A stretch of DNA of 64,000 nt, from assembly GCA_044892525.1 (NCBI GenBank), contig CM097886.1, positions 40,610,001 through 40,674,000 of the forward strand, given 5' to 3'. Below are positions 10,401-19,400 of the stretch, piece by piece (within the stretch, counting starts at the first letter, position 1; every line of letters starts with the position of its first letter). The notes beneath the pieces were generated by a model that worked only from the letters and a program-made list of their open reading frames with translations, was not told where the DNA came from and did no database searches. The position numbers and the translations under genes are program-made. The DNA is from Schmidtea polychroa. Its lineage: Eukaryota.

Positions 10401-13400
10401 ACTACACTTCGTTTAAATTTCGCTGATTATTTGTTGTTATTCTAATGCAAAATAAGGTTTTTGGACCAGATGCAACTAGTAAAAACTTGCACCCTTACCT
10501 CAAGTAGCGGAATAAGTAACAACTCGTAATTTCGTATAAACTATACGTCACTATTTTATGATTACCCCTTATCCATACCATACGGTGATATCGTCGTAGA
10601 AATATAGCATCGTAAAAATATTGTAATTACATAATAATTTGTTATCGGATTTAGTTTTCTATTACAATACGTCATTTACAGGGAATATGAGAAATTTAAC
10701 TACAATATTACTAGCTATTTTATAACCCAAAAATTCCTGTAGATACTTTAGTTAATTTAAATTTGGCTCGAAGGCTACTACTATTATTTGTAACATCTAA
10801 TTAGAATTACGATAAACCTCTACAACACTTAGGTAAAACTTCCTATGGTTTAGTTATAAAGTTTGGTTTGAATTTTCGGTTATTAATTAAAATACCCCTT
10901 CAACAATTTCGATTTTTATTTAGAATATTTAATTTAAGCAAAATTATCTTTAATGAGTGCACTTTAGAGAGTCCCTTATCTTAGTAGTCGGTTACTGGTT
11001 ATTTGGCTTATCTTTTTAGTGGTACGAATGGCCTTTATCAGTAGTGAAATTTAAGAGTCAGTCATCTGGAAGTCACATCTCATGTCAGCATTATCTAATA
11101 GGACCACTGATTACTACTCACACACTAAGAATCCTAGAGAGGGTGACACATGGCGGCATTCCCTGCGGTGAGAGGAATTTGGAATGATTCTGCTGTTTCT
11201 CATGCATATTTCTGACCGGATGGCGCTACTCATAGTTATGTTAGCAGTATGTCTGTATGTACGGGTGCCTGTTCGATGGAAATTTTATCTGTAACTATCA
11301 ACCGTACTGAGCGAACTGCAAATGTTACATCGCGTGTCGATTCCCATCTGAGCTTATGATGTTGGATTTATTTACTACGACTCGTAATTTCCTCAACATT
11401 GGATGTTTTTGAACGATGGGAGATCTCTACGAACCAGCCAACTAGACTCTATGAAGCATATTTCAGTAGTGGATATTTCGACGCAACAGCATGAAAATTA
11501 TTCAATGGGTATTACCAGATTTTGTTAATATATGTGATTGAATACAGTATTATTGTGGTTTTATGTTTTATTTTTCCCTTATTGTAAATTCCTCATCATA
11601 TGCTAGGATTTGGATGTCGCATCTGAAAGAGATGACCTAAATTAGATTTACTTTTTCAAAAGTCTACCGAATGCAATTTCAACTTCTCGATATGTTGGAA
11701 AACCCAGCGATGGATGTTTAATGGTATTTTCCCCCACATGGTAAGTTCGGATTTATAGACAGAAGTGGCATGAATGTCTTATAAGACGACTCTGGACAAT
11801 ACAGAGTTAATATGAGAACTCCCTCAGTCGCTGTGAAGCACATATCCTATTTTCGAAAATTTCATAAGGTTTCCTTTCGGTCTAGATTTCGGTACTCTGA
11901 CAGATTTTAAGTCCTTCAGCAATTGGACCCGTGAAGAAGCCTTCACATTTCGGCCCAATCTAGCTGCGTGATTGAAATACTCCATGTCCACCGGCTGAGC
12001 TCCCGAAGGCACCTCATACCATGACATGGAGTATCTCAACTCCACGTTACTCGTTAATATTAGAAATCATAAAACTATCACTTCAAAATAAATATCCATA
12101 AAAATTATGTAAGAGTTCACCTGTTACCAACACATACTTTTAAACATTTAAATTATTTACTTTATCAAAATCGTTATTCAGGATCAAATGAAAAGAGAGT
12201 CTGTTTAAATTTAAAAGTTTAATTGCTCATTAAATATACACATTTACTATTAACTTCGAAAAACAATATCATAAATAAAAATCCCTTACTATGGAATTAG
12301 GCTGAATCGGAAAATTAACGTTAGTCGTTCCAAATTAGTCTGATGATGGTTCGTCGAACGTCGATTGCTGTGACTGATTTCGAATTGCTGTGAAGTTTTT
12401 CGAATTAACTGTTGCTCTACTTGTATTGCTGATCCTTGAAATAAGTCTCCGTGAGTTGTAGATGTCTATGAAATGCTCGGGGTTAACAGTAAATTTAATG
12501 TTTTTGGTAGTTGTATATATATCAAATTCTTATTCGTGCGGACCAATCAGAGTTGAGTACCGCTTATTTCTATTAATTTAATATAATTTTCTTGTTTTTA
12601 GGTTGTTTTCTCCTTATTTTCTTTATTTTTAATATGTTTTTCTATTTATTTCCTTAATTTCCTTATTATTTCTTGAATTCCTCTTTATTTATTTGTCAAC
12701 TTGTTCTATTTTAATCTTTTCTTAATTTTATTTTTTGTTTTAATTCTTATGTCTTAATTATTATTTTCCTTATACCTTATTCTATTTTATTTCTGATTTT
12801 ATTTATTTTATTTTTATTTTTCTTAATGTTCTACTTCCCTACTTTCTTATTTTTCAACGATTAAATTTTCGACTCAGCCCAACAAATCACTCGGGGACCC
12901 ATCAAAATTGCGTCCCGCAATTGCATAATTAACTTAATTCATTCATTCAAAAAAAAAAAATATAACACGAACACGAAAATTATACAACAATGATAAAATT
13001 TTTATTGTAAGATCAAGGTCAAAGCAAGATCAAGCAAGTATCACTTAAGGTGATAGTTTGTACATACAATAAAAGTTTCCACATATAATAACACAAATGT
13101 TTGAGTTAGAGTTTATGAACTGTTAACCATTGATGCTTCTGCTGGCGGCTGTTGGTTGGTTTGGGTATTAATGTTGAGATAGGTCTGACTATTAGATTTC
13201 GGCTGGATTGGTTGATTACTCGGGGTTCGAGGTCGGAATGGGGTTGGGTTAAGATTTGTCAGGGGCACTTCTTGAGGATTTTGGTTCGAGGTTACTCTTA
13301 TTGATGTCGAGACTCTACATCTATTTCGAACTTCGTAAATTTTCATGAATATTGGTAGACATAGGAGGAGGGTTTCTGCGATCACCACATATATGAGATA

Positions 13401-16400: not shown

Positions 16401-19400
16401 CTCATTTAGATTTATTTCCCGTATTTTCTGATGTAGCTCCTTGGCCTGATTATTACTGATTTCTATTCGGTTTATTTGCATCTTTATGTTTGCTCGGGCT
16501 TCTTCGAACGCTTCCCTTTCTTCTAGTAGTTCTTTGACTAACACTTTCAACGATGTTATCTCTATCTCCATTTGTTTTACTTTCTCTTCGCTTTCTCGTA
16601 ACGCAGTCGACCACATTTCTGCGTGAGTTGAAGCATTTTCTACTAAATGATGTGGTAACTCACCTCGGTGTAGTAATTTCTGACAACCCCATCTACCTAG
16701 TACACATGTCATTCTTTTCTTTTCGCATTCCCTTAGATGCTGTGCCACCTTCATTATTTCCCCTTGGTTACATCCGTTTGGGCATTCCCCACTGAACTCC
16801 GCACATACTCTCTCCTCTTGGACATTGTGATGTTTGAGGGTGAGATTTATCCACGTATCTATTTCTCCACAGTGTTCACATCTTTCCAATCTCTCTTCAC
16901 ACTGCCTTTGATGCTCTTTTTCTTCGCTTGCTCGAATGGTTTTATGGCACCTTTCACACTGGCCAATTCTGTACATACATTCTCCCATATGTTGTACTAC
17001 CTTCCATATTACTCCTTTCCATTCGCATGGGGCATTTTTGCATCCCAGGTTGGTGTTTAACATGTCTTTCACTGCGGCTTTATCCTCGTTAGTGTCTTCT
17101 AAACTCGATATTAGTGTCTCTTTGCACACCGGGCACCTCTGTGGTCTATTCTTTATTGCTTCACTGATACATTCTTTACATGCTCGGCATCCACATTGCG
17201 TTTGGTGAGGTTCCTTTAACAACTTTTCACATATTCCGCACATAACATGTTTGTGTATTCTGATCGTTGTAGATTTTCGGACTTGCTCGACAATCTCTCT
17301 GAACTCTTCTCTTTGTCGTTTATCCATTCTATAATTATACGTACAAATAGTTCTTATCGATACAGGTTCGATATTTTATTTACAATTATTTACATTTTGA
17401 GCTAGGTTTGGTTTAGGGTTCGGAAGAGTCGGCTTCGTGTCCGCTCTCCTCTCTATTCATTAGCCATTCCGACCAGTCTTCTATTTCTATCTGTTCTGCT
17501 TCCTCCCTCATTCGGTCTATTTCAATTTCCTGTCGACGGCTATATTGGGTTATCCTCTCTATTTCTCTTTGCATTTGTTCGATTTTTAACCTCTGGTCTT
17601 CAATTATCTTCAAATAACTAAATCCTCTGTTCATACTCTCGATCAGGTTTCTGTGCATCGTCAGTCCTTGTTCTTGCAAATTGGACACTAATTGTGCTAA
17701 TACGGCGCATTGTTGCTTCCATAATTCTTCAGTTACTGTATTGGGGTTCATTTCGCTATTTCCTTGATCCATTCCTAATTTATATACACTTTTCAACTCT
17801 TATGTAAATTTAATTTTATTTTGTGATTCCCGTTATTGTATAATATTGATACCGCGCTTATATAAAGATATAGTACTGTTATATACATAAGATATACTTA
17901 CTTTTTACAATTATATACAGTCATATTCCTTTCTATATACGTGAGTTTGGAGGGCGCTGAGTGTTCCAGGCCTCCACCCACTGTTCTTGTTTGATATCAC
18001 TTGGTCGTTTCACTCGATGTTGGAAATTTCTGATTCGGGTCATCTCTAGTTCTCCGCGATGTCGTTTATCTTTGATTATTTTTATTGTTCCCCCCGTTAT
18101 AATTAGGAAGGCCCCTGTTATTATTATCCCACTGATCCACATCATCTGCTTCACGCTTATATTCTCTGGTTTCTCCTTGTTCGTTAATGTTGATATCGCT
18201 TCTATGCCTTTCTCGTTTCCTCTTTTGCCATTTCCTTTCATCATTTCCCGTATTCTTGCTATTTCCTCGTTCATACCCTCCTTTGCCATCTTTTGTATTT
18301 TTTCCATCTCTTCCTCCGAAACATAGTTGTCCTGAGCTTCCTCGCCGGTTTTCTTGTGCTTTCCTCCTTCGTCCTTTTCGTCGTGGTTTTTCCTTTTCTT
18401 TCCTCTTTTCCCCGGGTATCGTCGGCATTCTCTTTTTGATTCGTTTCTCCAGATACAAACCGTATATTCCTTCGGGGGCTGCTGCTGCGTCACATATTGA
18501 TGGCATCTCTCACCCGGTCCTAATCTTGAAATACAGACTTTGTGCTCTTTTCTTGGTTGGAGCTGCGTTATTACTACTTCACCACCTTTTCCTAGGTGTA
18601 CCTCTTTTCCTTTGACGTTCGTTATTCTCTTCCCGTCTCGGTTTCGGTATGCTTCTTGTATTCTTACTTCTGTTATTGGTTCTGTGTCCTCATTTATCAG
18701 TACTAGTTTCTGATACGCTCTAGACATGCATCTTCCTAGTATGCACCTTTCCTTTAAGTCCCATTCTTCCTTTAAATCCCACTGCTGCTCTTGTGCTTGC
18801 TTTTTCTTTTCTTGTTTTAGTTCATCCTCTTTGCTATCTTGATTCTCCGCTTCTTTGGTTTCTTTTATCGTTCTCGTCCCTCCCTGAGCTGTTACTAACT
18901 CTATCATGGTAAGCATAATTATCATTAATATCATATTTGTCTCTATTTCTTTGTTAGTGAAAGGTAGGCATACCCTCTGTTTTCCATTATTCGATTTTTC
19001 CTCCTCTTTGGTCTTAGTTCCCGGGCTGTTTCCCTCTCTTTTCGTATCCGAATCCTTGTTTTCCGGTTTACCCTCCTCCGGTTCTCTTTTCTCTTTATCC
19101 TCCTTTCGGCCTTTTCCGTTATTGTCATCGTGTTTATCTCCCCCGCTGTCGTTTAAAATGTCGTCCTCGACATTTATATCGTTCAATAATCTGCGATATG
19201 CTGTTAGCACTCTGTTTCTTGCTAATTTTGCTTCGAATTCAAACTCCTTCCTGCCCGTTGCAGCATGCCTCTTTCTATTCCATTCTTTAACTAACTCTCT
19301 CAATTGCATACAACGATGTTTCCCAATTCGTTGTTGCTCGTTCTGATTTTGCGTGAATTTTAGGTCTTCTCTATTTAATACTATTAAAATAATTTTAGGC

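What the first reader, a model, noticed from the sequence alone, without database searches (positions are those of the whole stretch)
13001..17933. Operon-like accessory cassette: AATAAA, then AG, then ATG at every gene boundary
Seen on the minus strand: AATTAG|GA-ATG (17772), TTATAG|A-ATG (17327), ATTTAG|AG-ATG (15745), TTATAG|AT-ATG (14520), TAATAG|TATC-ATG (13766), and also CAACAG|CT-ATG (34623) and CTTTAG|8 nt-ATG (10061). AATAAA follows each upstream stop (17815-20, 17375-80, 15881-86/15774-79, 14585-90, 13790-95, 13001-06), roughly 20-60 nt before the next AG. Established: this layout typifies operons resolved by spliced-leader trans-splicing, which flatworms and nematodes possess, or complex retroviruses splicing a common leader onto several acceptors. 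Inference: the element uses one of these routes to express many genes from one promoter. Caveat: these motifs are short in AT-rich DNA.
Basis: partly seen in the sequence, partly recalled or inferred. Interest (0 to 1): 0.75.

Follow-up and report, generated by a model that had tools for sequence, protein, structure and literature searches.

The report
Common-leader splicing in giant retrotransposon
A giant virus-like jumping gene of a flatworm keeps a splice-acceptor-like signal in front of each of its extra genes and a poly(A)-type signal behind each, and it likely makes each protein by splicing one short leader from its own end repeat onto one gene at a time, though no spliced RNA has been seen yet.

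Summary
The motifs are real. They lie in a young 30.3-kb Burro/GYPSM1-like LTR element (LTRs 1 mismatch in 4,110). YAG lies 1-4 nt before all five 3' accessory ATGs (joint p 4e-5). These AGs score like host acceptors and recur in a sister family with 25-36% protein identity. AATAAA alone is near chance (p 0.02-0.08), but TGTA is enriched. The LTR holds the likely partner: CCAAT, TATA, a 201-nt ATG-free leader and a GTAAG donor kept in 27 of 28 copies across divergent leader types. The polyprotein also has an acceptor. Best reading (0.62): cis-splicing of one LTR leader onto eight alternative last exons, like the adenovirus late unit. SL trans-splicing is the main rival (0.18). No junction was seen in contig-only data, so the mechanism is inferred. 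Added here: a Pumilio-type motif occurs 11 times in the spacers and nowhere else on the element's sense strand. This scan reported the same layout before on other copies (e1-8578977, e1-8575156).

The parts
34966..39075 (-). 5' LTR, 4,110 nt, TG...CA ends; 4-bp target duplication GTAT at 8771-8774 and 39076-39079
8775..12884 (-). 3' LTR, 1 mismatch to the 5' LTR (very young insertion)
38705..38738 (-). Predicted Pol II promoter: ATTGG (reverse CCAAT) at 38738-38734 and TATATATA at 38712-38705; conserved in sister LTR types
   Evidence: motif names recalled
38481..38681 (-). Predicted common leader, 201 nt, no ATG; this copy lacks the 48-54-nt GTAA(G/A)...AG mini-intron that 23 of 28 family copies carry after the first 25 nt
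38475..38480 (-). Predicted major splice donor GTAAGG (copy at 12289 in the 3' LTR); GTAAG kept in 27 of 28 copies while the exon before it is only 51-62% identical between leader types
   Evidence: host donor matrix ranks it only at the 61st percentile
38104..38244 (-). Conserved hairpin-like block (contains CTTCGG) in the predicted intron; the part of the intron most alike among sister LTR types
   Evidence: no Rfam match; not folded here
35500..36262 (-). LTR ORF (250 aa, no Pfam hit) with acceptor AG 36262-36261 (99.7th percentile) and AATAAA at 35376; homology between sister LTRs resumes at or within 30 nt of its ATG
34941..34958 (-). Primer-binding-site-like 18-mer (tRNA-Pro-like; likeness recalled)
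34138..34627 (-). 5' accessory RING ORF (161 aa, zf-C3HC4_3) with acceptor CAG 34626 and AATAAA at 34033/33995
32336..32337 (-). Predicted polyprotein acceptor, best-scoring of 2,122 AGs in the element, followed by 549 nt without ATG
17933..31786 (-). 4,617-aa polyprotein: gag, CCHC, fusion glycoprotein (env-like), PR, RT, RNase H, integrase, ankyrin; AATAAA at 17820
17413..17776 (-). Accessory ORF A (119 aa, no Pfam hit): acceptor AG 17776-17775, ATG 17772, AATAAA 17380
15939..17330 (-). TRAF-like ORF (462 aa, RING + MATH): acceptor AG 17330-17329, ATG 17327, AATAAA 15886/15797/15779
14690..15749 (-). Accessory ORF C (351 aa, charged, coiled-coil-like by eye): acceptor AG 15749-15748, ATG 15745, AATAAA 14590
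13822..14524 (-). Accessory ORF D (232 aa, coiled-coil-like): acceptor YAG 14523 (TAG in 19, CAG in 9 of 28 copies), ATG 14520, AATAAA 13795
13113..13772 (-). Accessory ORF E (217 aa from 13766; hydrophobic N-terminus and one TM-like segment, by eye): acceptor AG 13772-13771, AATAAA 13006 followed by a GT/T-rich stretch
13792..17919 (-). Eleven TGTA[ACT]ATA (Pumilio-element-like) motifs at 17919, 17887, 17788, 17394, 17384, 15923, 15909, 15897, 14594, 14536, 13799, all in the five spacers
   Evidence: motif UGUANAUA from PMC5855632 passages
33042..33557 (.). 75-nt tandem repeat array in the 5' internal region

Best explanation
This giant Burro-like LTR element carries a splice-acceptor-like AG before each of its eight genes and an AATAAA after each, and it likely expresses them from one LTR promoter by cis-splicing a common 201-nt ATG-free leader onto one gene per transcript, each gene acting as a predicted alternative last exon with its own poly(A) site. 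Shown: the motifs, their conservation, their host-like scores and the LTR donor. Inferred: transcription start near 38681; splicing from donor 38480 over 2.2 to 24.7 kb to the acceptors at 36261, 34626, 32336, 17775, 17329, 15748, 14523 and 13771; and use of a poly(A) site only when the acceptor upstream of it has been used (terminal-exon coupling, recalled). RNA that skips all acceptors would read to the 3' LTR and serve as genome. Spliced mRNAs would lack the primer-binding site, so they would not be copied into DNA by the element's own RT.
For: Acceptors: YAG within 4 nt of the ATG in 5 of 5 spacers, p 3.9e-5. With a matrix from 45 inferred host myosin introns (5 of 50 dropped as longer than 65 nt or duplicate), the five rank 1, 3, 5, 6 and 8 of 430 cassette AGs and fall at the 24th-84th percentile of host acceptors. 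An AG is kept within 4 nt of the ATG in 28/28, 28/28, 28/28, 28/28 and 27/27 aligned copies. In a sister family (proteins 25-36% identical; homologous spacers 53-62% identical, z 1.0-3.3 over shuffles) AG lies within 4 nt in 6 of 6 spacers (YAG 5 of 6, p 5.6e-6) and is the best-scoring AG in 5 of 6. Donor: GTAAG in 27 of 28 copies across six exon-2 types 51-62% identical, all ATG-free (joint p 1e-5 mono-, 0.012 dinucleotide, five types). The sister family has TATA, TCAGT(C)-type start and a GT(A/G)AG donor 76-87 nt on in 6 of the 6 LTRs that could be read (11 loci tried). A mini-intron of host size (48-54 nt against 41-63 nt) has a tail matching its own exon 1 (22/22 in 5 of 6 types) but not other types (8-17/22), as expected if spliced leader RNA is the template. 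The sequence between hairpin block and LTR-ORF start is not homologous between sister types. The polyprotein has the best acceptor of the element plus 549 ATG-free nt; the sister family has 526 nt to its previous ATG. 3' ends: TGTA 18 against 7.7 expected in spacers, 0 of 2,000 dinucleotide shuffles reaching it. Literature: a cis donor out-competes SL at an acceptor (PMC4558846 passage).
Against: No leader-acceptor joint among the rows shown: one search showed 15 joints with 46 hidden and 21 loose ends with 810 hidden; one search had 1 joint in all (also in a DNA run) and showed 12 loose ends with 44 hidden. Contigs of the guessed-RNA run X1 bridge two acceptors unspliced (17889-17719; 13939-13415); genomic RNA or DNA would also give this. 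The donor is unremarkable by the host matrix (61st percentile of 1,045 GTs), and 36 GTRAG sites lie on the sense strand, one (17901) inside the first spacer. In 2 of 5 spacers another AG scores higher than the start-proximal one. Acceptor AG columns are not significantly more conserved than spacer columns (1 of 10 against 141 of 662 variable). The sister-family leader has an ATG in 5 of 6 copies. The ATG-free 549 nt are not significant against dinucleotide shuffles (p 0.08). The mini-intron tail could also arise by tandem duplication without splicing. The spacers (55-193 nt) fit the <=300-bp operon criterion used for flatworms, where cis-splicing is rarest at operon acceptors (PMC12582326 section 11).
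Confidence: 0.62

Rival explanations
1. The 3' cassette is an SL operon: a long precursor is cut at each poly(A) site and the downstream piece receives the host spliced leader at these AGs, while the LTR donor serves only the LTR ORF, RING and polyprotein. A mixture of SL and cis use at the same AGs is also possible.
For: Planarians have SL trans-splicing, and flatworm candidate operons have spacers of <=300 bp, peaking near 100 bp in Macrostomum (PMC12582326, PMC8629364 passages); the spacers here are 55-193 nt. Cleavage at an upstream poly(A) site would remove the cis donor. Cis and trans use share acceptors widely in flatworms.
Against: Flatworm SLs end in ATG. In this element that AUG would be out of frame at 7 of 8 acceptors and would open a 49-codon ORF at the eighth. 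In the sister family 4 of 8 gaps are in frame, so overall there is no bias towards the frame, and every ORF keeps its own ATG (weak evidence). Only 17-60 nt separate AATAAA from the AG, little room for a branch point after cleavage. A conserved unpaired donor exists upstream. No SL-like common loose end among the rows shown.
Confidence: 0.18
2. Each accessory gene has its own small internal promoter in the spacer (TATA-like TGTATATAA or GATATAAA motifs), and the AGs are incidental or serve short local 5' UTR introns.
For: TATATAA-like words occur in several spacers. A GTAAGT at 17901 could pair locally with the AG at 17775 and is present in all 7 family copies printed.
Against: It does not explain AG fixed 0-4 nt before the ATG in two families. 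The 55-85-nt spacers must also hold the upstream 3' end. The local donor is absent from the sister family's spacer, and the other four spacers have no GTRAG.
Confidence: 0.1
3. The signals are relics of how host last exons were captured (the donor spliced into host acceptors during read-through), and the genes are now translated from read-through RNA by reinitiation or are barely expressed.
For: TRAF-, RING- and (in the sister family) BIR-type genes are host-like. Guessed-RNA contigs cross two acceptors unspliced.
Against: The AG-ATG layout persists while proteins fell to 25-36% identity and spacers to near-random likeness. Upstream in-frame ATGs come and go among copies while the AG stays. 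The ORFs show excess third-position change, e.g. TRAF 41/39/106 variable columns.
Confidence: 0.1

Closest known systems
Burro / GYPSM1 giant gypsy-like LTR retrotransposons of planarians (PMC6431247 section 7, read whole)
   Same: Over 30 kb with long LTRs; one huge polyprotein with gag, in-frame env-like fusion protein, PR-RT-RH-IN and ankyrin repeats; accessory ORFs with MATH/TRAF; many copies.
   Different: MATH/TRAF is a separate downstream ORF here (in the polyprotein of Burro1, upstream in the D. tigrina element). No BIR hit in this family; the sister family has one. That section says nothing on how accessory ORFs are expressed. Grohme et al. 2018 and its supplement were not available.
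Adenovirus major late transcription unit (PMC7851563 passages): works like, not a member
   Same: About 28-kb primary transcript, a 201-nt AUG-free spliced leader joined to many mRNA bodies, several poly(A) sites. Here: a predicted 26-kb unit, a 201-nt ATG-free leader and eight acceptors.
   Different: A DNA virus with five poly(A) families shared by several mRNAs, shown by long reads. Here it is a retroelement with one poly(A)-type signal per gene, inferred from DNA only, and the unspliced RNA must also serve as genome.
Complex retroviruses (HIV, HTLV, foamy viruses; recalled, not tested)
   Same: One LTR promoter and a major 5' donor spliced to several acceptors for accessory genes.
   Different: Their mRNAs share the 3' LTR poly(A) site; here each gene has its own signal, the donor lies upstream of the primer-binding site inside a predicted R region of about 3.3 kb, and even gag-env-pol has an acceptor.
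Plant Ty1/Copia (EVD) subgenomic gag RNA (PMC5580714 abstract and outline)
   Same: Precedent for splicing coupled to internal termination in an LTR element, with U1 snRNP guarding the full-length RNA.
   Different: One subgenomic RNA from one intron, against eight predicted last exons here.
SL-resolved operons of flatworms (PMC12582326 passages and section 11; PMC8629364 passages)
   Same: Same-strand genes under 300 bp apart, each with an acceptor before the start.
   Different: Operon acceptors have no competing upstream donor and are rarely cis-spliced. Here a conserved donor and ATG-free leader are present, and no SL was seen.

Membership tests
Burro/GYPSM1-like giant LTR elements | Total length over 30 kb with long LTRs | tested here: met
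   8775-39075 = 30.3 kb, LTRs 4,110 nt
Burro/GYPSM1-like giant LTR elements | Single ~4,600-5,100-aa polyprotein with gag, CCHC knuckles, PR-RT-RH-IN | tested here: met
   4,617 aa; Pfam hits in that order
Burro/GYPSM1-like giant LTR elements | env-like fusion protein in frame between gag and PR | tested here: met
   PF24664, E 2e-70, best stretch aa 1868-2207, before RVP at 2397
Burro/GYPSM1-like giant LTR elements | Ankyrin repeats and MATH/TRAF (in polyprotein or accessory ORF) | tested here: met
   Ank_2 1e-17 in the polyprotein; MATH 3e-27 in the 462-aa ORF
Burro/GYPSM1-like giant LTR elements | BIR and BCL2-like motifs | tested here: inconclusive
   No Pfam hit at E<=0.01 in this family's 8 ORFs; BIR present in the sister family; no profile-profile search run
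Burro/GYPSM1-like giant LTR elements | Sequence identity to a named Burro-1 to -4 reference | not testable with these tools
   Reference sequences and Grohme 2018 not held
SL-resolved eukaryotic operon | Same-strand genes with short spacers (<=300 bp) | tested here: met
   55-193 nt; criterion
SL-resolved eukaryotic operon | SL sequence joined at the acceptors in RNA | tested here: inconclusive
   Contig-only runs, RNA status a guess, most loose ends hidden
SL-resolved eukaryotic operon | No competing upstream cis donor on the precursor | tested here: not met
   GTAAG donor conserved in 27 of 28 LTRs; cleavage could still remove it from downstream pieces
Common-leader / alternative-last-exon unit (adenovirus-late-like) | Promoter, AUG-free leader and 5' donor | tested here: met
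   By sequence and conservation only
Common-leader / alternative-last-exon unit (adenovirus-late-like) | Acceptor before each gene and poly(A) signal after it | tested here: met
   8 of 8 ORFs; AATAAA alone not significant, TGTA context is
Common-leader / alternative-last-exon unit (adenovirus-late-like) | Leader-to-acceptor junctions and gene-specific 3' ends in RNA | tested here: inconclusive
   None among rows shown; no DNA retrocopy with a non-G base after the leader end (0 matches against 62 with G)

The most novel reading that the evidence does not exclude
A provirus-like retroelement runs a true eukaryotic operon: its 3' cassette is cut at each spacer and resolved, wholly or in part, by the host's spliced leader, and Pumilio-type elements packed into the spacers tune the TRAF-like and other accessory mRNAs in stem cells. 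The searches made here found no mobile element described with an SL-resolved operon.
Probability: 0.18. Interest if true: 0.85.

Novelty: new variant of a known kind. Interest (0 to 1): 0.55.

Why it matters
Burro-type elements are the largest LTR retrotransposons described in the review read here (PMC6431247) and carry genes that may meddle with apoptosis and ubiquitin signalling in a stem-cell-rich host. How they express these genes is not addressed in the section read or in five literature searches. If the reading holds, a retroelement has reached an adenovirus-like design with eight last exons on one leader, and it must balance eight internal poly(A) sites against making a 30-kb genome. 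That gives exact junctions to look for in existing planarian RNA data. It also means RNAi against one region may hit only some of the mRNAs. The spacer-only Pumilio-like motif points to a host stem-cell regulator, or to the 3'-end factor CFIm, as a testable switch.

Tried and rejected
RNA evidence: the look-up of sequencing runs gave no RNA holder listed (12 runs, all contigs). Read laying at 80% (X1, X6, X7, X4) and 92% (X1, X6) showed no leader-acceptor joint and no common loose end at an acceptor, with most loose ends hidden. The lack of X1 cover over 10335-11802, where DNA run X4 has cover, is not used, since sister types have other sequence there. Retrocopies of spliced RNA: 0 genome matches with a non-G base after the leader end, against 62 with G; a junction to ORF A begins with G and would have been missed. 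Two internally deleted copies are not splice products: one has a 9-nt microhomology, one a 728-nt replacement. Avoidance of donors or AATAAA inside the polyprotein: not seen (16 against 17.7 and 17 against 18.7 expected). Search for a third family with a 3' cassette through PF24664, PF00452 and PF00653 (loci read) gave other elements or the same sister family; one element (L071) has 5' ORFs, one of three with an AG before the ATG, not followed up. Rfam: no match over 8500-39500. One search held four loci in the wrong orientation (L003, L005, L011, L012); those rows were ignored and the counts redone. Literature on planarian splice-site consensus: nothing relevant listed, so a host matrix was built instead. 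The protein atlas did not answer for ORF E. Grohme 2018 and Rossi 2014 were not held; their text and supplements may bear on novelty and on SL targets.

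
Full report
Context. The finding lies in a 30.3-kb minus-strand LTR element: LTRs 8775-12884 and 34966-39075, one mismatch in 4,110 nt, 4-bp target duplication. It encodes a 4,617-aa polyprotein (gag, CCHC, fusion glycoprotein, PR, RT, RNase H, integrase, ankyrin), five 3' accessory ORFs (119, 462 TRAF-like, 351, 232 and 217/222 aa), a 5' RING ORF and an ORF inside the LTR. 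The genome holds at least 30 copies of the cassette at 98-100% and 92 scored TRAF matches at 95-100%. This matches the Burro/GYPSM1 elements of planarians (PMC6431247 section 7, read whole). The host is taken to be a planarian from that likeness alone.

Observation. All listed motifs are present. YAG within 4 nt of the start holds in 5 of 5 spacers (joint p 3.9e-5 by shuffling; 25 of 180 internal Met codons have it). The choice of 13766 over 13781 for ORF E is post hoc but backed by the sister family. AATAAA alone is weak (p 0.022 mono-, 0.084 dinucleotide), but TGTA is enriched in the spacers (18 against 7.7; 0 of 2,000 shuffles). The gaps from AATAAA to the AG are 17-60 nt, and other AGs intervene in 4 of 5 spacers.

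Are these acceptors? I inferred 50 short introns from host myosin genes (a few are probably wrong) and used 45 for a matrix. The five cassette AGs rank 1, 3, 5, 6 and 8 of 430 and fall within the host range (24th-84th percentile). Host acceptors are likewise A/T-rich with weak pyrimidine tracts. In two spacers another AG scores higher. I examined 28 family copies: the 12 best hits and 16 picked mostly from the less identical part. An AG stays within 4 nt of the ATG in all aligned copies, with TAG/CAG exchange at D and TAG|GA or AAG|A (14 each) at A. AG columns are not significantly more conserved than spacer columns. A sister family found through MATH hits has proteins 25-36% identical and spacers near random likeness, yet has AG within 4 nt in 6 of 6 spacers, YAG in 5 of 6 and AATAAA in 5 of 6. 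Its LTR ORF and RING ORF have AG-ATG too.

The missing partner. Sister LTR types share CCAAT, TATA, a 25-nt first exon, a 48-54-nt GTAA(G/A)...AG mini-intron (23 of 28 copies; absent in the window's), a 140-176-nt second exon only 51-62% identical between types but always ATG-free, and then GTAAG with a switch to T-rich sequence (27 of 28). The mini-intron's tail copies its own exon 1 in each type. This lead came from note e1-8146218 and I confirmed the pattern; it suggests spliced RNA is the template, but tandem duplication is not excluded. Between the conserved hairpin block and the LTR-ORF start the types are not homologous, as an intron may be. The sister family has TATA and a GT(A/G)AG donor 76-87 nt on in 6 of 6 readable LTRs, but its leader holds an ATG in 5 of 6. 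The host matrix does not single out the donor. The polyprotein has the element's best acceptor at 32336 followed by 549 nt without ATG (p 4e-4 mono-, 0.08 dinucleotide), so all eight ORFs fit the scheme.

Mechanism. The simplest reading is one promoter, one 201-nt leader, one major donor and eight alternative last exons 2.2-24.7 kb away, one mRNA per precursor, with fully unspliced RNA as genome. This resembles the adenovirus late unit (28-kb transcript, 201-nt AUG-free leader, five poly(A) families; PMC7851563 passages). A smaller LTR-element precedent is the splicing-coupled termination of plant Ty1/Copia (PMC5580714 abstract). SL trans-splicing remains possible: planarians have it, spacer sizes fit flatworm operons, and acceptors are often shared (PMC12582326 passages and section 11, PMC8629364 passages). 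Against it are the SL's terminal ATG, out of frame at 7 of 8 acceptors here (weak, as 4 of 8 are in frame in the sister family), the short room after AATAAA, and the donor-first rule (PMC4558846 passage).

RNA. Only assembled contigs were on offer. No leader junction or SL-like end appeared among the rows shown, and most loose ends were hidden. Two acceptors are bridged by unspliced contigs, which genomic RNA or DNA would give. No DNA retrocopy of a junction was found. The mechanism is therefore inferred, not shown.

An added feature. TGTA[ACT]ATA, the Pumilio-type element (UGUANAUA; PMC5855632 passages, which also note that DjPum is needed in planarian stem cells), occurs 11 times in 662 nt of spacers and 0 times in the other 25.5 kb of the sense strand. 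About 1 is expected with TGTA held fixed (0 of 5,000 shuffles; sister family 7 against 1.2, p 2e-4). Some copies lie downstream of the AATAAA, so a role in 3'-end or acceptor choice (CFIm-type UGUA, recalled) is as plausible as translational control.

Novelty. The element type is known. Five searches listed no paper on its transcript processing, but Grohme 2018 and its supplement could not be read. This scan reached the same reading on other copies (e1-8578977, e1-8575156); that is not independent support. Verdict: a real, selected layout; a new variant of a known kind; interest 0.55.

Noticed in passing
window 17919-13799 (spacers); L035 1366-7427: TGTA[ACT]ATA (Pumilio-element-like) is confined to inter-ORF spacers: 11 there, 0 elsewhere on the sense strand. 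In the sister family the first TGTA sits 16-18 nt after the stop in 6 of 6 spacers.
   Followed up: partly
window 32135-31787: The last ~116 codons before the polyprotein ATG are open in frame and begin right after a TAG; the sister family's upstream region looks similar by eye. A non-AUG start or a second acceptor could give an N-terminally extended Gag.
   Followed up: no
window 38657/38656 (12466/12465); L002, L040-L043, L050: The LTR mini-intron whose tail copies exon 1 is absent, exactly, from 5 of 28 copies including the window's.
   Followed up: partly
window 38104-36262 and L040-L044: Sister subfamilies with 92-95% identical cassettes carry non-homologous LTR middles between a conserved hairpin block and the LTR-ORF start, which suggests module swapping inside the predicted intron.
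   Followed up: partly
window 38681-35350: If the start and poly(A) site are as predicted, the R region would be about 3.3 kb and hold a gene, with U3 and U5 of about 0.4 kb each.
   Followed up: no
window 17901: A GTAAGT in the polyprotein 3' spacer could splice out the AATAAA at 17820 and join ORF A to the polyprotein mRNA; present in the 7 family copies printed, absent in the sister family.
   Followed up: partly
window 14122 (run X6): One contig about 87% identical ends in a 17-nt poly(A)-like tail some 25 nt after an AATAAA inside ORF D: possible internal polyadenylation, or oligo-dT priming.
   Followed up: no
L064-L067, L072, L073; L068-L069: Small Bcl-2-like ORFs (115-144 aa) in many copies beside other repeated ORFs, apparently in a different mobile element.
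   Followed up: no
L071: A third gypsy-like element with a fusion-protein region and three ORFs upstream of its polyprotein.
   Followed up: no
window 33042-33557: 75-nt tandem repeats, six of them with a GTAAG; the array appears longer in L046.
   Followed up: no
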